From the sequence record PX930853.1: 51,150 nt of DNA; one strand, given 5' to 3'. The notes below the pieces were generated by a model that was not told the DNA's origin, did not search any database, and saw nothing but the letters and a program-made list of their open reading frames with translations. Below, in pieces: positions 7,728 to 39,330 of this stretch. Position numbers and translations under genes: made by a program. Each line of letters begins with the position of its first letter. Positions within the stretch are counted from its first letter, which is position 1. The DNA comes from a phage.

Positions 7728-10700
7728 TTACCACGTACCAGTAAGCCTACCAATCTGAACACGCAAGCTCCCGTTTGCGTCCCGTACACTTATCGTTTCG
7801 TTGGTCAACTTCATGGCCCCTTCTCCAGATGTAGAACCATAGTTCTCAAATCTGCCGTTTTTATCCAGCCTCCACCCCTGCTGATTAGCAACAAAGTTAT
7901 TCGACTGAATATAATTACCAATCATGGCATTTGTGATGGAACCGTTTTTCACTAGCAGGCTGTTAATGAAAACCTGGTTGTTTTCAACAACGAAAGGCAA
8001 AGTAAACGTACCTCCAGTAGAGCTAGTCATGATCGCGAACCTGTTAGCATCGAACAAGATTTGCGAGATCAGGCCTTGAGAAGATTGCGACAACTGCATG
8101 ATCATGCCTGCGCTGTACTTCTGCCCCTTGTAAGTAAGGCCCAATTTCATAGCGTACTTAGCGCCAACCGAATCAACGTTAGCCCACGAATCAAGTTTTT
8201 CGGCTAGTGCTGATTCAACGTCTCCGAATTTGGCTGTTAAAGCCTGGTCAGCCTGAACCCTTGCCTCTGTCTCATTAGCGATAGCCTGTCTTACTTCTGA
8301 TATGTTCGCCTCAACATCAACCTTGATTGCATCGTTAAGGTCATTAATCTCTTTCGAAAACTTAGCGTCAAGCTGCTGAACGGCTTGCGCACGCGCTTCT
8401 GATTCATTGGTAATGGTTTGCCTTACCTCGCCAATGCTTGCAGCCGTATCTCGTTTTACGCCGTCTATTTCCTTCGTAAATTTAGAATCAAGTTGCTGCA
8501 CTTGAGTAGCTCGCGTCTCTGATTCGTTGGCAATCGCTTCCTGAACGGTTTTGATACTTGAAACTATATCTTCATCAATTGACGCCTTTAACTCTTCGAT
8601 TTGAGTTACTCGCGCCTCCGTTTCGGTAGCAATAAGCTCCAGTGCATGACCATATTCAGCCTTACGCTTTCCGTTTTGTACTCGCGTCCACTTCACATCA
8701 GCATCGTTTGCCAATGCGTTCTGGATGATTGATTGCGCCTGGTCTTTGATTTTGTTGGCACTGTCTATGGCGTTCTCTTTGATTTCTTGACCAGCTTCGG
8801 TATCAAAAATCTTGTCCAGAATGTCGCCTAAAACAGAGTCAACATCATCTGACGCCATGCCACGAACAAAGTCAGTCCAGCCGGAAACGTTGCCTATTCT
8901 GTCAACGCTGCGGATTCTATACCATACAACTTGCCCCGCTGGTAACGTGCCATGCCAATACTCATATTGAGGATACGGGATCAGCGTAAGCAAACTTGAG
9001 TTTTCCACCGTTCCATCTGGCGATTGGTGAAGCTCGATGTAAGCCGTATCTCCTGACCCTTCCGGCATACCCCATTTGACACGAATGCCAAAAACTTCAT
9101 TATCAGAAGCTGTAAGATTAATCGGCGCTCCTGGCTCGCCAACTTTACCTGTCAGGGTTGCGGTTGCAATCTTTGACCACGGGGAAGTGTTACCGCTTGC
9201 AGAAACAGATCTAACCCTTACTTGGTAGTTACCAGAATAAATTCCTTCTACCTCTATCTCTTTGTTAGCTGTCTGCGGTGTATTCAGCCAGTTGCCATCA
9301 CCTTTTCGCCATTGCATTTCATACAATGACGCATAAGGCACTTTTTCCCATGACACAACCATAGTTTCAACGCTGACACCCTGCACGACGCGAGAATAAG
9401 ATGAGATCTGCACGTTCTCAGGCGCTGCCATCACGTCAGGCTGAACAATTGAAGTTGGCCTGTCATCAATGTTTACTCCATAATCAATCTCGTCGTATTT
9501 GTTCGGATCGTACTCTACAGCCGTGATTGAATAGGTAAACTCGTTTTCGTCATCACCCTTGCTGATAGTTGTCACAACGTATTGCTGCAACGCAAGGTCA
9601 GTACGGTCAATCGCAAAAACGGTATCAGGCTTAACATCAAAACCAAATCCAATATTTAACTCAATGGTTTTTCCGTCTGCGCTAACCTTTGAGATCGTGC
9701 GCTTAACTGGCTTACCGTCCGGCTTGTTGATGATAATAAAATCACCAGGACGAGCATCAACCTTAAACGGAACGAAAACCTGCAATCCTGAAACTTCCAT
9801 CACTCGGCCCGATAGGTTTAACGTTAGGTTGCTGCTCTGAAAATTATCAGCGATAGCAATCACATCACCTATTGATGGAATCATCCCCTCCAGTCCAGTA
9901 GCAAAGTTTACAGTAGTGCTTCTAAGGTTTGTTTTCAAAACCCACCGACCGCGACGATTCGCTTCGCTCCTGCGTGTACACCCGATCGCTGTAATGCTTG
10001 TTGGATTGTATCCAAATCGTAATGCCGCCTCAGTATCAAAAACCCCCTCTACGTCCTGTTGATACATGTTTTGTTCGTCGTCAAACGTCACGTTACACTG
10101 CGTGTACATGCTTTTTTCGCTTGCGGTTGTGTACTGAAAATCACCGTTGATGACGTTTTCATTAGTAAACACGTATGATGGATCGCGCGGCTTATCAATC
10201 ACGATTGATAAGCTCTCACCATTCCAAAAGCTCATTCCGCGAAAGATTGAGCAAATGTCACGGATTAGCTGATAAGCCTCAACTTGATTCTGAATCACAA
10301 CATCGCATAGGTAGCGAGGCTCTGTACCGCCTTTACCGTCTGGAACTTTCTGATCACAGTAAACTCCTGCCTCATATAAGCTCCACTTGTCGATCTGTAT
10401 TCCTAGCTCTCGCTGGTCAAGCCCATAACGCTGATTCGTTACCAGATCATAAAGCACCCAAGCAGGATTATTTGACCACGCTTTTTTAAAAGTACCATCC
10501 CATGACCCGTGATATTCTCTTGATATTGGATCGTAGTTGCTTGGCACGTTAATAATCTTCCATTTCTTTTTTATAGAAATGTTAGGGATTTGCGTAGGAA
10601 ACAATTCGCTGTCAAATTCTACGAATACAAGGCCAGTCAGAGGATAACGGAATTTTGCATCCACAACCTCAGCGTAACTTTGCAGTTTGATTTTATCAGT

Positions 10701-11306
10701 CACCTTTGAAGATGTGCTGTCTGGCGTAACTCGTCGAACGCGGAACAATACGCGATCATTGAACTTCGGCAAGTCGATACGGCGACTGCGGTCGTAACCT
10801 GTTCTCGTTTTACCGTTAATGGTGTCCAGCAAAACTTCTTTGTAAGATTCGCCATCAACCGCCATATCAACGGCATATGTGACACTAACACCTACCAGAT
10901 CTCCGTTATCCTCCTGCTTTATGCCAGTTGGCATCAGAATCTTGATTCTGATTGCGGAAAGATTTTTGTTTGTTACAGAGATAATATATGGATTGTCTGC
11001 TGTAATATCTCGCGAAACTGTCACCTCGCTTGATGTGTCAGTAAACCCCTGGATGTAATCTTGCGTCTGTGTGCCTGGTCTATATTCAGCCATTACCCCC
11101 TCATAGTTAACAGTGCCATCGCTGGCAATAACCGGAACATCATCAAGATAAAGATCACGCAACGTGAAATCTGGATCGCACTCGCCATCAGATACAGCCA
11201 GCAAAACTTTAATCTTGTTTATCGAGATCAGGTTATCTTCCATCTCTTTTGGCACGTATGGCTTTTTGCTTCCGCCCTTACTGCCGCTTATCATATATTT
11301 AGCCAT
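7728..11306 (-). CDS. tail tip / central tail fiber protein (lambda J-like host specificity protein)
   Basis: ~1190-aa ORF downstream of tail assembly I-K-L-M genes; N-terminus SGSKGG...KPYVP...DNLISINKIKVLLAVSDGE resembles J-family N-termini. Confidence 0.8.
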   Translation of the reverse strand: MAKYMISGSKGGSKKPYVPKEMEDNLISINKIKVLLAVSDGECDPDFTLRDLYLDDVPVIASDGTVNYEGVMAEYRPGTQTQDYIQGFTDTSSEVTVSRDITADNPYIISVTNKNLSAIRIKILMPTGIKQEDNGDLVGVSVTYAVDMAVDGESYKEVLLDTINGKTRTGYDRSRRIDLPKFNDRVLFRVRRVTPDSTSSKVTDKIKLQSYAEVVDAKFRYPLTGLVFVEFDSELFPTQIPNISIKKKWKIINVPSNYDPISREYHGSWDGTFKKAWSNNPAWVLYDLVTNQRYGLDQRELGIQIDKWSLYEAGVYCDQKVPDGKGGTEPRYLCDVVIQNQVEAYQLIRDICSIFRGMSFWNGESLSIVIDKPRDPSYVFTNENVINGDFQYTTASEKSMYTQCNVTFDDEQNMYQQDVEGVFDTEAALRFGYNPTSITAIGCTRRSEANRRGRWVLKTNLRSTTVNFATGLEGMIPSIGDVIAIADNFQSSNLTLNLSGRVMEVSGLQVFVPFKVDARPGDFIIINKPDGKPVKRTISKVSADGKTIELNIGFGFDVKPDTVFAIDRTDLALQQYVVTTISKGDDENEFTYSITAVEYDPNKYDEIDYGVNIDDRPTSIVQPDVMAAPENVQISSYSRVVQGVSVETMVVSWEKVPYASLYEMQWRKGDGNWLNTPQTANKEIEVEGIYSGNYQVRVRSVSASGNTSPWSKIATATLTGKVGEPGAPINLTASDNEVFGIRVKWGMPEGSGDTAYIELHQSPDGTVENSSLLTLIPYPQYEYWHGTLPAGQVVWYRIRSVDRIGNVSGWTDFVRGMASDDVDSVLGDILDKIFDTEAGQEIKENAIDSANKIKDQAQSIIQNALANDADVKWTRVQNGKRKAEYGHALELIATETEARVTQIEELKASIDEDIVSSIKTVQEAIANESETRATQVQQLDSKFTKEIDGVKRDTAASIGEVRQTITNESEARAQAVQQLDAKFSKEINDLNDAIKVDVEANISEVRQAIANETEARVQADQALTAKFGDVESALAEKLDSWANVDSVGAKYAMKLGLTYKGQKYSAGMIMQLSQSSQGLISQILFDANRFAIMTSSTGGTFTLPFVVENNQVFINSLLVKNGSITNAMIGNYIQSNNFVANQQGWRLDKNGRFENYGSTSGEGAMKLTNETISVRDANGSLRVQIGRLTGTW

Positions 11307-11353: not shown

Positions 11354-11379
11354 ACAAAAAAACCAGCGCAATGCTGGTT
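11354..11379 (-). terminator. rho-independent terminator (minus strand)
   Basis: AACCAGC-GCAAT-GCTGGTT stem; T7 on minus strand. Confidence 0.5.
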
Positions 11380-11383
11380 AAAT

Positions 11384-11860
11384 CTACTTTCCGTGGTTTA
11401 TGTGGAATTTGTTTAAAACTTCAATCTCTATCCTCTTTTCTGCCGCATCCTGAAATGAATCAAAGTAAAATTCATGCCTAACACCATCAATCTTTGCTCT
11501 TGCAATCCATTTTCCGCGACTAAAGTTTACCCCAGTAATTCCCGTCTTGCTGTTCCTGTAAAGCGACTTATTCTTGTTGTTAACACTCATTCTAACAAGT
11601 CTTAAGTTTGAAATATTGTCGTTCATTGTGTTGTGATCTATGTGATCAACTTGCATTCCATGCGGTATTTCTCCATTATGAATTTCCCAAACTATCCTGC
11701 TCCTGTAGTATCTTTCTCCATCAATTGATATTCTAACCCTTTCTCCACTCTTCTTGCTTTTGCTTACGCTTCCTGCCTCACTTCATTTCTTTATCCTTCT
11801 TCCTACGTCTACAGCCCAAAATAACTTACCGTCATTATAATAAAAAATATCACGCCACAT
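11384..11860 (-). pseudogene. HNH homing endonuclease (HNH + AP2-like domain) interrupted by single in-frame TGA at 11783..11785
   Basis: One frame reads MWRDIFYYNDGKLFWAVDVGRRIKK-TGA-SEAGS...RYYRSRIVWEIHNGEIPHGMQVDHIDHNTMNDNISNLRLV...; GGAGGTGATC RBS before ATG 11860; track shows only the distal 90-aa piece. Confidence 0.6.
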
Positions 11861-11921
11861 GATCACCTCCTTAATTAATTGTAAAGCGAAAATCCGTTTT
11901 CGCTTTAACATATTGTGCTAT

Positions 11922-12518
11922 TTATGCTTTGTCCTCTGCGTAGCTGCCAGCCGACCAGATCGCGCCGCCTACTGTCCTATATCCATATGGCAAAGGAACC
12001 GGATAGCCTGCCGCCGTGGTATTTACTGCGCCGCCGAAAGCGTAAGAAGGCTTGTTTTCTGCTGATTGGCTTTGCAGTTTCATTCCGCCCTGCTGCGGAG
12101 AGATCATTTGCATGACACCGCCAAGCGCGATAGCACCACCCATCATAAATGCGGAAGATGCAAAAGCGCCCATAGCCGCCAGGCTTGCACCGCCAGTAAT
12201 GAACGCAGTAGCCATAATTACAGCACCAAAAACAACATTGAACAGGCCGCCGGACTTAGAACCAGTTGGAACAGGAACTATTCTAACCTCTCGCGCGCAC
12301 TTCCATGATTTTTCATCATGCTGACCAATGTTTTTACCGTCAACGAATATAGCATACTTCATGCGCGATCCAACTTCGCTTTGCATGTAGTCTTTGAACC
12401 CTTCAACCTGGGAAGATAACGCGCGTATTGCTTCGGGGTATGAGTCAACCGCCATTTTGTGAAAGACGCCAAATCTACGCCCCAGGGAACCAGATAGCTT
12501 AATTACTTTCAATGTCAT
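11922..12518 (-). CDS. tail assembly protein I
   Basis: 198-aa ORF after K; Gly/Ala-rich hydrophobic segment; lambda I-like position and size. Confidence 0.7.
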   Translation of the reverse strand: MTLKVIKLSGSLGRRFGVFHKMAVDSYPEAIRALSSQVEGFKDYMQSEVGSRMKYAIFVDGKNIGQHDEKSWKCAREVRIVPVPTGSKSGGLFNVVFGAVIMATAFITGGASLAAMGAFASSAFMMGGAIALGGVMQMISPQQGGMKLQSQSAENKPSYAFGGAVNTTAAGYPVPLPYGYRTVGGAIWSAGSYAEDKA

Positions 12519-30680: not shown

Positions 30681-30760
30681 TTCAGATCCACTTATTTTTG
30701 TTTAAGTCCCATCAGCATCTTGCGAACGCCGTCCTTTTTCCCGTCAGAGTAGCCAGTAAT

Positions 30761-30874
30761 TTAACCAGCGGCAAAAACCATCAAGTTGCCCCAAAAGGCC
30801 ATAATGCCCTCATAGTTAATGGTTAAATGGCTACCGAAAAGTATCAGGAAAAGAATAATAATACCAGTTTTCAT
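30761..30874 (-). CDS. small hydrophobic peptide (37 aa), not in ORF track
   Basis: GAGGTGAAA RBS then ATG; MKTGIIILFLILFGSHLTINYEGIMAFWGNLMVFAAG. Confidence 0.3.
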   Translation of the reverse strand: MKTGIIILFLILFGSHLTINYEGIMAFWGNLMVFAAG

Positions 30875-34422: not shown

Positions 34423-34608
34423 TTAAAAGAAAGCTACATAGTTTGCAATGCCTTTGGCGTCGTCGTTTGGCATTGCTTTTACAGCCAGGTCATAACCTGC
34501 CTCTACCTTCTGCTTTGCTGCTTCTTCGTTGTAGCCCCAGATAACCAGGATTTTAACTACGTTTTCTTTGTTCAGGACTTTAAGGTCTTTGGTGATGCGA
34601 CGTGCCAT
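34423..34608 (-). CDS. hypothetical early protein (61 aa)
   Basis: ORF track; ~55 bp downstream of conserved box. Confidence 0.5.
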   Translation of the reverse strand: MARRITKDLKVLNKENVVKILVIWGYNEEAAKQKVEAGYDLAVKAMPNDDAKGIANYVAFF

Positions 34609-34664
34609 TTTTGTTTCCTCAATCTCGTTTCGATGAGGCTATTATGCCAGGCTTTGCGCCTGGC

Positions 34665-37388: not shown

Positions 37389-37586
37389 ATGGAAAATCAG
37401 GTTGATGTTAAAGTTGTTAAGCGCGACAAGTCTCACGAAAAAGGTTTGTTTAAGAAAGGCGCTGAAATCACCATTGACCTTGATGATATGGAGGCGTACC
37501 ACTCAGGGCTAACTTGGAACGTGCGCAAATGTGAAAACGGCCTGTTCAAGTTAAATGGCTTTGAAACATACATGGAGATCATTTAA
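37389..37586 (+). CDS. hypothetical early protein (65 aa)
   Basis: GAGGA RBS then ATG 37389 (track ORF begins at upstream GTG). Confidence 0.5.
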   Translation: MENQVDVKVVKRDKSHEKGLFKKGAEITIDLDDMEAYHSGLTWNVRKCENGLFKLNGFETYMEII

Positions 37587-37840
37587 TGGCATACGAAAAG
37601 AATGATTTCAATAGCGCAAGAGAAAAAATCAAGGCGGCGCGAATTAAACAGCGCGCCTTTAGATTCTGGCTTGACTATCGCGATCTAAGAAAAGAGATGG
37701 ATACGCTTATTAAGAACGGTAGCGCATTCTGCTCTAATAGAACGGTTTGGCGAAATATGAATCGCAGTACGGCCAGGGTAAAATTCGTGTATTTGGCGGC
37801 GCTGTTGATGCTTATGTATTTAGCGCAACAAATGCTGTAA
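37586..37840 (+). CDS. hypothetical early protein (84 aa), hydrophobic C-terminus
   Basis: ORF track; TAATG stop-start overlap. Confidence 0.45.
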   Translation: MAYEKNDFNSAREKIKAARIKQRAFRFWLDYRDLRKEMDTLIKNGSAFCSNRTVWRNMNRSTARVKFVYLAALLMLMYLAQQML

Positions 37841-37865
37841 GTTTTAACGTAACTGGGATCGCATA

Positions 37866-38078
37866 ATGGCAAAGCAATTAAAACTTAAATGCGTAGAAAC
37901 TTATAACTCAATTTGGAAATTTACGCGCGGAAAAGAATATCCACTAATGGGAAATCTCAAAGAAGATCCTCATGTAATTTCAGATAATGGTCTTCACCTT
38001 TATTTAATGGAATACAACGATGGGTATATTGGCGCTGGTGTTCCAGGTCATAAATTTAAGCTGAAAAATAAGAAATGA
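37866..38078 (+). CDS. hypothetical early protein (70 aa)
   Basis: ORF track. Confidence 0.45.
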   Translation: MAKQLKLKCVETYNSIWKFTRGKEYPLMGNLKEDPHVISDNGLHLYLMEYNDGYIGAGVPGHKFKLKNKK

Positions 38079-38802: not shown

Positions 38803-39330
38803 ATGAATTGGCACGATTACTTTACATACAATCCAGAAACTGGAAAGCTGTTCTGGAAAGAAAGAAAAGATATTCACCCATCAAGAGTTAAACAATGGAA
38901 TGCTTGCAATGCTGGTAATGAGGTTGGCTCTTTTGGTAGTGGTGGCAGATATTTAGAAACTGCACTTACTGTAAACGGAAAACGTTATAACCTGAAAGTT
39001 CATAGAATATGCTATGAAATGCACTATGGGCCTATACCGGAAGGAAAGGAGGTTGATCACGTAAATCACATCACGACTGATAACAGAGCAATAAACTTTG
39101 AGTTAAAAGATCACAAAGGAAATATGCGAAACACATCAAAGCAGAAAAACAATACAAGTGGCATACCAGGTGTGCATAAAAATAAACATGGCAAATGGGT
39201 TGTAAGGGTTGGAGGCGGAAAGCGAGGAAGTAGGATTTATATAGGTTGTTTTTCCAGTTTTGGAGATGCTGTTGCCGCAAAACGTAAAGCCGAGAATGAA
39301 TTGGGGTATCATAAAAATCATGGGAAATAA
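38803..39330 (+). CDS. HNH homing endonuclease with AP2-like DNA-binding domain
   Basis: YNPETGKLFW...VDHVNHITTDNRAINFEL HNH signature; C-terminal GIPGVHKNKHGKWVVRV AP2-like segment. Confidence 0.65.
   Translation: MNWHDYFTYNPETGKLFWKERKDIHPSRVKQWNACNAGNEVGSFGSGGRYLETALTVNGKRYNLKVHRICYEMHYGPIPEGKEVDHVNHITTDNRAINFELKDHKGNMRNTSKQKNNTSGIPGVHKNKHGKWVVRVGGGKRGSRIYIGCFSSFGDAVAAKRKAENELGYHKNHGK

What the first reader, a model, noticed from the sequence alone, without database searches (positions are those of the whole stretch)
11384..11860. HNH-AP2 homing endonuclease gene interrupted by one in-frame TGA
Read in a single frame from a GGAGG-led ATG at 11860, the sequence encodes a full-length HNH endonuclease (N-terminal YYNDGKLFW block, core HRIVW-like RSRIVWEIHNGEIPHGMQVDHIDHN...DNISNLRLV, C-terminal AP2-like segment), but codon 26 is TGA at 11783-11785. 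The ORF track therefore shows only the distal 90-aa piece. It sits between the tail tip J gene and tail assembly gene I, a typical homing-endonuclease insertion point. It is either a recently inactivated selfish gene, a sequencing error, or expressed by stop-codon readthrough or internal re-initiation.
Basis: seen in the sequence. Interest (0 to 1): 0.55.

Follow-up and report, generated by a model that had tools for sequence, protein, structure and literature searches.

The report
Homing endonuclease gene with private stop
A small selfish "homing endonuclease" gene that hops between related E. coli phages carries, in this one phage only, a single-base change that turns a strictly conserved glycine codon into a stop, so it is an ordinary freshly broken copy (or, less likely, a one-base sequencing error), not a case of recoding.

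Summary
On the minus strand, an ATG at 11860 preceded by GGAGG opens a 158-codon HNH endonuclease frame ending at 11384, and codon 26 (11785-11783) is TGA.

The window is a Warwickvirus (Drexlerviridae) coliphage. The gene lies on a 537-bp insert between tail genes I and J. That insert is present in some relatives and precisely absent in most.

All 18 other copies examined have GGA (Gly) at codon 26, and Gly26 is invariant in 21 homologs down to about 32% identity. The TGA is therefore a private G-to-T change, not a conserved recoding signal. TGA also ends 10 of the window's 34 long ORFs.

The insert is 99.75% identical among carriers whose flanks differ by 2-4.5%, and it carries short carrier-specific flank markers. 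These are signs of a recently mobile element.

Two other independent lesions of the same gene exist: Glu64-to-TAA in a metagenome phage, and a 323-bp deletion in phages tonn and ityhuna.

Best reading: a recently inactivated selfish gene at the start of decay. A single-base sequencing error cannot be excluded without reads. Programmed readthrough or re-initiation is not supported. This is ordinary and of low interest.

The parts
11384..11860 (-). HNH-AP2 homing endonuclease reading frame: 158 codons plus TAG. In this window it is a pseudogene.
   Evidence: Translation. Differs at one base (the nonsense change) from four of the eight relatives where a 477- or 528-nt HNH endonuclease or hypothetical-protein CDS is annotated, and at 2-3 bases across the whole insert from the others.
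11783..11785 (-). The lesion: codon 26 is TGA. On the gene strand it is a private G-to-T change at 11785 (GGA Gly to TGA).
   Evidence: Alignment A1 column 216 has T in the window and G in 10 GenBank phages. GGA is also found in metagenome contig L016, in L017/L018, and in L019-L022 and L024. Gly26 is invariant in 21 homologs.
11866..11870 (-). Shine-Dalgarno GGAGG, 5 nt upstream of the ATG at 11860.
   Evidence: Read directly from the sequence. Variants GGATG (mar001J1, tonn, ityhuna) and GGAGA (brachmannus) occur in other carriers.
11883..11906 (-). Perfect 10-bp hairpin (AAAGCGAAAA-CGGA-TTTTCGCTTT) at the 5' end of the insert, between the stop of gene I and the endonuclease RBS.
   Evidence: RNA fold -11.4 kcal/mol, z=-2.6. 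It is part of the 537-bp insert and is absent from empty sites.
11381..11917 (-). The 537-bp mobile insert. Boundaries are ambiguous by about 3-5 nt because the junction is A-rich.
   Evidence: The distance between GCATAAA (end of I) and the ACCNGC terminator stem is 542 nt in carriers and 5 nt in empties. Gap columns in A1 and in the flank alignment agree. Diversity is 0.25% among 9 carriers, against 2.1% and 4.5% in the flanks.
11361..11379 (-). Intrinsic terminator hairpin plus T-run after the endonuclease gene. It carries three carrier-specific bases (11375 A, 11372 A, 11365 T, against C, C, G in empty sites), and 11375/11365 form a compensatory stem pair.
   Evidence: Terminator scan. Fold -12.6 kcal/mol. 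The markers associate perfectly with the insert in 17 carriers against 8 empties.
11931..11934 (-). Two synonymous carrier-associated bases in the last codons of gene I (11934 G, 11931 C; empties have A, T). This is the upstream co-conversion tract.
   Evidence: Fixed in 11 GenBank carriers against 3 empties. They hold in metagenome carriers except L024, which carries the insert with empty-type A,T and is therefore a recombinant.
11384..11656 (-). Residual 90-aa ORF from Met69. It keeps the D72-H73 catalytic dyad and the AP2-like domain but loses the N-terminal domain and the first part of the HNH_3 fold.
   Evidence: ORF list. Pfam matches only profile positions 19-45 of 46, at 26.3 bits. There is no ATG, GTG or TTG in frame between the TGA and Met69. 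The nearest GGAG is 14 nt upstream of this ATG.
11922..12518 (-). Tail assembly protein I (198 aa), upstream neighbour and left border of the insertion site.
   Evidence: The identical protein in 10 other contigs hits Pfam Lambda_tail_I. Relatives annotate it as tail assembly protein.
7728..11306 (-). Tail tip / host specificity protein J (1192 aa), downstream neighbour.
   Evidence: Relatives annotate a 3579-nt J/tail fiber CDS that starts at the equivalent ATG. Pfam GpJ, Phage-tail_3 and Phage_Tail_Tip hit homologs.

Best explanation
The region holds a free-standing HNH-AP2 homing endonuclease gene (HEG). It lies on a 537-bp mobile insert between tail genes I and J of a Warwickvirus coliphage.

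In its intact form the gene is transcribed with the late tail genes and translated from its own GGAGG site. The protein has an I-HmuI-like His-Me finger nuclease domain (D72-H73, N85, N94) and a C-terminal AP2-type DNA-binding domain.

By inference, during co-infection the enzyme cuts insert-free relatives at or near the I-J junction. Repair from the insert-bearing genome then copies in the insert together with a few flanking bases.

In this window a single private G-to-T transversion changed the invariant Gly26 codon GGA to the opal stop TGA. Translation ends after 25 residues and no usable restart precedes Met69, so no functional nuclease is made.

The copy is now a passive passenger at the first step of the usual HEG decay path: invasion, then inactivation, then deletion. 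It otherwise equals the consensus element, so the inactivation is very recent.
For: Shown directly:
1. The frame and the TGA are as described.
2. All 18 other copies have GGA at codon 26: 8 full-length GenBank phages and 2 deletion remnants, one metagenome contig, the two Glu64-stop contigs, and 5 further metagenome phage contigs.
3. Gly26 is an invariant column in 21 homologs down to about 32% identity, within a K-x-G-S-E-A-G motif.
4. TGA terminates 10 of the 34 window ORFs of at least 150 aa, so there is no reassignment.
6. Mobility signatures:
   - Of 60 matching GenBank records, 12 carry the full insert, 3 carry a remnant and the rest match only through the flanks.
   - Mean pairwise diversity is 0.25% in the insert, against 2.1% and 4.5% in the 1.5-kb flanks of the same genomes.
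   - Carrier-specific bases lie only within 14 bp of the insert.
   - One recombinant carrier exists (L024).
   - The same exact I protein flanks both occupied and empty sites.
7. Independent decay of the same element: GAA (Glu64) to TAA in ERZ27232774 and SRR11125400, and a 323-bp deletion with GCG microhomology in tonn and ityhuna.
8. The window's copy differs from the copies in four carriers (JLBYU01, Phunderstruck, Kalemo, JLBYU10) only at the nonsense base.
9. The assembly looks sound overall. Its 308 private substitutions are 69% third-position and 66% synonymous, like the control genomes.
10. All three private gene-breaking changes in the window fall in small accessory genes. Under randomly placed errors, P is about 0.03.
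11. Precedent: an HNH-AP2 HEG split by a frameshift in phage ICP1 (PMC10448857).

Inferred, not shown: the cleavage site, the homing mechanism, and loss of activity of the truncated product.
Against: - No reads are available, so a consensus error at 11785 cannot be excluded.
- The window carries three private ORF-breaking differences: this one, TCA to TAA at 30762, and a 1-nt deletion near 37762. Four control genomes carry 0-1 each. That is somewhat elevated and could reflect a few assembly errors.
- No independent assembly of this isolate was found. Its J and tape-measure proteins are not on record, and neither truncated product is on record.
- Endonuclease activity and homing have not been shown experimentally for any member of this narrow lineage. 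The next homolog is only 41% identical.
- The lineage has Ser in place of the nearly invariant His54.
Confidence: 0.74

Rival explanations
1. Sequencing or assembly error. The phage really has GGA at codon 26 and an intact endonuclease, and the T at 11785 (gene strand) is a consensus miscall.
For: - The change is a singleton among 19 copies.
- The window has two further private ORF-breaking differences (30762 C-to-A nonsense; a 1-nt deletion near 37762). Both are absent from 54-58 related records.
- Four control genomes show 0-1 such events each.
- No independent assembly of the isolate could be found to cross-check.
Against: - Private substitutions genome-wide have an evolutionary signature: 69% third position and 66% synonymous, within the control range.
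- Their base spectrum is unremarkable: C>A is 27%, against 17-25% in controls.
- All three disruptions hit small dispensable genes and none hits the roughly 69% of coding sequence in larger genes. P is about 0.03 if they were placed at random. This is what selection on real mutations would produce.
- Real nonsense and deletion alleles of this same gene exist elsewhere.
- The site is not a homopolymer.
Confidence: 0.2
2. The TGA is real but the gene is still expressed. This could be through basal UGA readthrough, where Trp-tRNA outcompetes RF2 and a small fraction of full-length G26W enzyme is made. It could also be through re-initiation at Met69, giving a 90-aa protein that contains the AP2 domain.
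For: - UGA readthrough by Trp-tRNA(Trp) competing with RF2 is documented in E. coli (PMC10570021).
- The 90-aa ORF keeps D72-H73 and the whole AP2-like domain.
- The independent Glu64-stop allele also leaves the same Met69 ORF open.
Against: - The stop is not conserved. All other copies encode Gly, so nothing has been selected for readthrough.
- Readthrough would place Trp at an invariant Gly.
- Met69 has no well-spaced Shine-Dalgarno sequence; the nearest GGAG is 14 nt upstream.
- The Met69 product covers only positions 19-45 of the 46-position HNH_3 profile.
- Two stops both falling upstream of codon 69 is expected by chance about 19% of the time ((68/158)^2, my arithmetic).
Confidence: 0.04
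3. Genetic-code recoding: TGA is read as Gly (as in code 25) or as selenocysteine at this position.
For: The ancestral residue at this codon is Gly, which matches the TGA=Gly reassignment known in some uncultivated bacteria (my own knowledge).
Against: - The host is E. coli.
- TGA ends 10 of the window's 34 long ORFs.
- All relatives use GGA here.
- No relative shows TGA at any conserved Gly position that was inspected.
Confidence: 0.01

Closest known systems
HNH endonuclease gene of Warwickvirus phages (for example atuna gp19 YP_009901325.1, JLBYU10_82, mar001J1 MAR002J2_00023)
   Same: It is the same gene at the same I-J junction. The 537-bp insert is 99.4-99.8% identical and has the same RBS region, 5' hairpin and terminator.
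   Different: The window alone has TGA where the others have GGA at codon 26. In the relatives the CDS is annotated full length, at 477 or 528 nt.
HNH-AP2 homing endonucleases (Magnani et al. 2004, as cited in PMC10448857; the 'IPA-HNH' HEGs of phage ICP1, Barth et al. 2023)
   Same: An N-terminal HNH-type nuclease plus a C-terminal AP2-type DNA-binding domain, in a small free-standing phage gene. The ICP1 gp115-gp116 pair is likewise described as likely an inactivated, split copy. The fold matches AP2/ERF domains, and three distant homologs carry Pfam AP2 together with HNH_3.
   Different: Here the HNH part is called directly by Pfam HNH_3, unlike the ICP1 genes. The AP2 part is not called by Pfam on this protein. 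The inactivation is a nonsense substitution, not a frameshift.
I-HmuI (PDB 1u3e), the HNH homing endonuclease of Bacillus phage SPO1
   Different: I-HmuI is encoded in an intron, and its C-terminal DNA-binding part is not an AP2 domain (my own knowledge). No sequence-level match to any PDB chain was found. This gene is free-standing and intergenic.
The homing endonuclease life cycle: invasion, fixation, degeneration, loss (Goddard and Burt model; my own knowledge)
   Same: All stages are visible in one phage genus: empty sites, intact copies that are nearly identical, two independent nonsense alleles, and an internally deleted remnant.
   Different: That model was described for intron- and intein-associated HEGs in eukaryotic organelles. 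Here the element is free-standing and sits in virulent phages.

Membership tests
HNH / His-Me finger endonuclease (Pfam HNH_3, PF13392) | Profile match above the curated gathering score | tested here: met
   57.5 bits against a cut-off of 24.8, residues 51-95, on the frame with Gly restored at codon 26. phrog_99 'HNH endonuclease' E=4e-49 over residues 1-158.
HNH / His-Me finger endonuclease (Pfam HNH_3, PF13392) | Catalytic Asp-His dyad and conserved Asn residues of the beta-beta-alpha-metal motif | tested here: met
   D72, H73, N85, N94 and N97 are invariant columns and are present in this sequence. The nearly invariant His54 is Ser in this lineage.
HNH / His-Me finger endonuclease (Pfam HNH_3, PF13392) | Beta-beta-alpha-metal fold | tested here: met
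HNH / His-Me finger endonuclease (Pfam HNH_3, PF13392) | Uninterrupted coding sequence able to produce the domain in this genome | tested here: not met
   TGA at codon 26. The only downstream ORF covers profile positions 19-45 of 46. In this window it is a pseudogene of the family.
HNH-AP2 homing endonuclease architecture | C-terminal AP2 domain by sequence profile (Pfam PF00847) | tested here: not met
   No AP2 hit at E<=0.1 for this protein. Only 3 of 20 homologs (P0002, P0009, P0012) carry a precomputed PF00847 call.
HNH-AP2 homing endonuclease architecture | C-terminal AP2/ERF fold (three-stranded sheet packed on one helix) | tested here: met
Free-standing homing endonuclease gene (mobile element) | Precise presence/absence polymorphism at one site among syntenic genomes | tested here: met
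   A 537-bp insert against an empty junction (542 against 5 nt) in 17 carriers and 8 empties that were inspected. The identical I protein flanks both states.
Free-standing homing endonuclease gene (mobile element) | Element much less diverged than its host genomes (recent horizontal spread) | tested here: met
   0.25% pairwise diversity in the insert, against 2.1% upstream and 4.5% downstream, among the same 9 genomes.
Free-standing homing endonuclease gene (mobile element) | Co-conversion of flanking markers, with tracts of variable length | tested here: met
   Five carrier-specific bases lie within 14 bp of the insert. L024 carries the insert with empty-type upstream markers.
Free-standing homing endonuclease gene (mobile element) | Site-specific cleavage of the insert-free allele, and super-Mendelian inheritance in crosses | not testable with these tools
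   This needs an in vitro cleavage assay and co-infection crosses. No paper mentioning both Warwickvirus and HNH was found.
Programmed stop-codon readthrough or recoding | The stop codon is conserved among homologs at that position | tested here: not met
   18 of 18 other copies have GGA. 21 of 21 family members have Gly.
Programmed stop-codon readthrough or recoding | Genome-wide avoidance of TGA as a terminator (code reassignment) | tested here: not met
   Among window ORFs of at least 150 aa, stop usage is TAA 20, TGA 10, TAG 4.

The most novel reading that the evidence does not exclude
The TGA is real, and the surviving 90-aa Met69 ORF (AP2-type DNA-binding domain without a complete nuclease) is translated. 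It would act as a site-specific DNA-binding protein, for example by shielding the I-J target site from intact endonucleases of co-infecting phages or by modulating transcription into J. That would be an early step in domesticating a HEG DNA-binding domain, as proposed for CapR and for plant AP2 factors (PMC10448857). The independent Glu64-stop allele leaves the same ORF intact.
Probability: 0.03. Interest if true: 0.5.

Novelty: already known. Interest (0 to 1): 0.12.

Why it matters
It matters little beyond annotation. The locus should be labelled as a pseudogene (HNH endonuclease, internal stop), not as a 90-aa hypothetical protein, and resequencing at 11785 would settle the error question.

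The wider picture is a tidy natural example of the homing endonuclease life cycle within one coliphage genus. Empty sites, near-identical intact copies, two independent nonsense alleles, a deleted remnant and a recombinant with a short co-conversion tract can all be seen.

The material would suit a teaching case or a simple homing experiment, for example intact atuna-type donor, this isolate and an insert-free phage such as tunus. It does not open a new question.

Tried and rejected
1. **Oxidative-damage signature.** Five of the first six private substitutions I saw were C>A or G>T, so I tested for a genome-wide bias. C>A is 27% of the window's 308 private substitutions, against 17-25% in four control genomes. 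There is no meaningful excess, so I rejected the idea.
2. **Error-dominated assembly.** Rejected on codon-position and synonymous fractions, which match the controls.
3. **Truncated products in public assemblies.** Exact look-ups of the 90-aa and 42-aa products found nothing on record.
4. **Independent assembly of this isolate.** Exact look-ups of the window's J and tape-measure proteins, used as fingerprints, found nothing on record.
5. **Pattern scans accepting G or T at the mutated base.** IMG/VR gave 0 hits, the GTDB genomes gave 0 hits, and JGI metagenomes gave 1 hit, which is GGA.
6. **Sequence search of the PDB.** No hit at E<=1. A fold search was needed instead.
7. **First disrupted-gene scan.** Using all ORFs of at least 60 aa produced mostly spurious out-of-frame ORFs. 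I redid it with a greedy non-overlapping ORF set and a requirement of at least 3 supporting genomes.
8. **Literature.** No paper holds both 'Warwickvirus' and 'HNH'. The ShiLan hidden-HNH paper concerns actinophages and is not related.
9. **Deletion junction.** My by-eye note of a GGCAGGAA/GGCAGAAA repeat at the tonn deletion was wrong. The junction has 3-bp GCG microhomology.

Full report
**What is in the sequence**

Read on the minus strand, an ATG at 11860 lies 5 nt downstream of GGAGG (11870-11866). It opens a 158-codon frame that ends with TAG at 11386-11384. Codon 26, at 11785-11783, is TGA.

The mechanical ORF list therefore shows only a 90-aa piece from Met69 (11384-11656) and a 42-aa piece that ends at the TGA. 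No ATG, GTG or TTG lies in frame between the TGA and Met69.

**Identity of the genome and the gene**

The window is a coliphage of the genus Warwickvirus (Drexlerviridae, Tempevirinae). It is 95-98% identical to its nearest deposited relatives and identical to none of them.

With Gly restored at codon 26, the protein hits Pfam HNH_3 (57.5 bits against a cut-off of 24.8, residues 51-95). It also hits phrog_99 'HNH endonuclease' across residues 1-158 (E=4e-49). The 25 codons upstream of the stop therefore belong to the family.

An AlphaFold2 model of the near-identical intact allele has mean pLDDT 85.7:

Pfam's AP2 profile does not call this protein. Three of 20 distant homologs do carry AP2 together with HNH_3. 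The label 'HNH-AP2' is thus supported by fold and only indirectly by sequence.

**Is the TGA a feature or a lesion?**

I aligned the window with eight full-length GenBank carriers: JLBYU01, Phunderstruck, atuna, Kalemo, JLBYU10, orkinos, mar001J1 and brachmannus. I added two internally deleted carriers (tonn, ityhuna). The window alone has T where all the others have G, so the change is GGA (Gly) to TGA.

The same GGA is found in:
- a JGI metagenome contig;
- two assemblies that carry a different lesion;
- five further metagenome phage contigs that encode the window's exact I protein.

That makes 18 of 18 other copies.

In an alignment of 21 family members down to about 32% identity, Gly26 is an invariant column in a K-x-G-S-E-A-G motif. 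TGA terminates 10 of the window's 34 ORFs of at least 150 aa. The stop is therefore a private substitution at a strictly conserved residue. It is neither a conserved recoding signal nor a reassigned codon.

**Evidence that the element is, or recently was, mobile**

- *Patchy distribution.* Of 60 related GenBank records, 12 hold the full insert, 3 hold a remnant, and the rest match only through the flanks.
- *Exact size.* The insert is exactly 537 bp. The spacing between the end of I and the terminator stem is 542 nt in carriers and 5 nt in empties.
- *Low diversity.* Among nine carriers the insert shows 0.25% mean pairwise diversity. The 1.5-kb flanks of the same genomes differ by 2.1% upstream and 4.5% downstream.
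- *Flank markers.* Bases that distinguish carriers from empties lie only within 14 bp of the insert. Two are synonymous positions in the last codons of I (11934, 11931). Three are in the terminator hairpin (11375, 11372, 11365), including a compensatory stem pair.
- *Replication and a recombinant.* In independent metagenome contigs the terminator markers track the insert perfectly. One carrier (L024) has empty-type upstream markers, so it is a recombinant with a shorter co-conversion tract.

These are the expected footprints of a free-standing homing endonuclease gene. The cleavage site and the homing reaction itself are inferred, not shown.

**Independent decay of the same gene**

The 90%-identity protein cluster of this gene contains a 63-aa and a 90-aa member. 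Their contigs (ENA ERZ27232774, 47 kb; Logan SRR11125400) carry GAA (Glu64) to TAA, with GGA at codon 26.

Phages tonn and ityhuna share a 323-bp deletion that removes the nuclease core. It corresponds to window positions 11447-11769 and has 3-bp GCG microhomology at the junction.

Some carriers also have altered Shine-Dalgarno sequences, GGATG or GGAGA.

Together with the window's opal codon, that gives three independent inactivating lesions in one narrow gene lineage. The next homolog is only 41% identical. Published work describes a comparable split HNH-AP2 gene in phage ICP1 (PMC10448857).

**Real mutation or sequencing error?**

This cannot be settled without reads. No independent assembly of this isolate could be found.

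For the error reading:
- The window has two more private ORF-breaking differences. One is TCA to TAA at 30762 in a conserved 60-aa gene. The other is a 1-nt deletion near 37762 in a conserved 93-aa gene.
- Both are absent from 54-58 related records.
- Four control genomes show 0-1 such events each.

Against the error reading:
- The window's 308 private substitutions are 69% third-position and 66% synonymous, like the controls.
- Their base spectrum is unremarkable.
- All three disruptions hit small accessory genes and none hits the roughly 69% of coding sequence in larger genes. P is about 0.03 for randomly placed errors. That pattern is what selection on real mutations would produce.

I put a real mutation at about 0.74 and an error at about 0.20.

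**Expression despite the stop?**

Basal UGA readthrough in E. coli inserts Trp, through competition between Trp-tRNA(Trp) and RF2 (PMC10570021). Any full-length product would therefore be a minor fraction and would carry Trp at an invariant Gly.

Met69 has no well-spaced Shine-Dalgarno sequence, and its product covers only the second half of the HNH_3 profile. Nothing indicates selection for either route.

**Verdict**

This is a correctly observed and correctly interpreted broken homing endonuclease gene, and it is unremarkable. The gene is already annotated in relatives, and nonsense decay of such genes is expected. Interest is low.

Noticed in passing
window 38803-39330 (+): A second, intact HNH endonuclease gene of the same broad family. 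It is 175 aa, about 36% identical to the tail-region one, and 97% identical to JLBYU10_20. It lies next to cytosine-methylase ORFs. Relatives tonijn, atuna and B1.2 lack it, so it looks like another polymorphic homing-endonuclease insertion.
   Followed up: partly
window 30762 (gene 30692-30874, minus strand): A private TCA (Ser38) to TAA nonsense change in a 60-aa hypothetical gene. Relatives annotate an intact gene here, and no copy identical to the window's was found among the 58 matching Warwickvirus records.
   Followed up: partly
window ~37762 (gene 37586-37866, plus strand): A private 1-nt deletion (the G of AATGCGC, not a homopolymer) frameshifts a 93-aa hypothetical gene. The gene is intact in the four relatives aligned, and the top database matches all span 282 nt against the window's 281.
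   Followed up: partly
L017:2001-2477 and L018:968-1444: An independent nonsense allele of the same endonuclease gene, GAA (Glu64) to TAA, together with two Thr-to-Ala changes. It occurs in ENA assembly ERZ27232774 (47-kb contig) and Logan SRR11125400. Whether these are the same sample is unknown.
   Followed up: yes
L009 and L010 (phages tonn, ityhuna), equivalent to window 11447-11769: A shared 323-bp internal deletion of the endonuclease gene with 3-bp GCG microhomology. What is left is annotated as a 117-nt hypothetical ORF.
   Followed up: yes
L024 (Logan SRR29834454 contig), I-J junction: This carrier of the insert has the upstream flank markers of empty sites (A,T rather than G,C at -14 and -11). 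It is a recombinant with a very short upstream co-conversion tract. The upstream markers are therefore not needed for the element to reside there.
   Followed up: partly
window 11699-11701 (codon 54 of the endonuclease frame): This gene lineage has Ser where at least 90% of family members have His, in the 'HR' motif preceding the conserved ...VW motif (SRIVW here). The effect on activity is unknown. All Warwickvirus copies share it.
   Followed up: no
L012 (phage vB_Eco-B1.2) ~34441-34649: A relative also carries a private frameshift that splits a 73-aa gene intact in the other four genomes. Occasional broken small genes are therefore not unique to the window.
   Followed up: no
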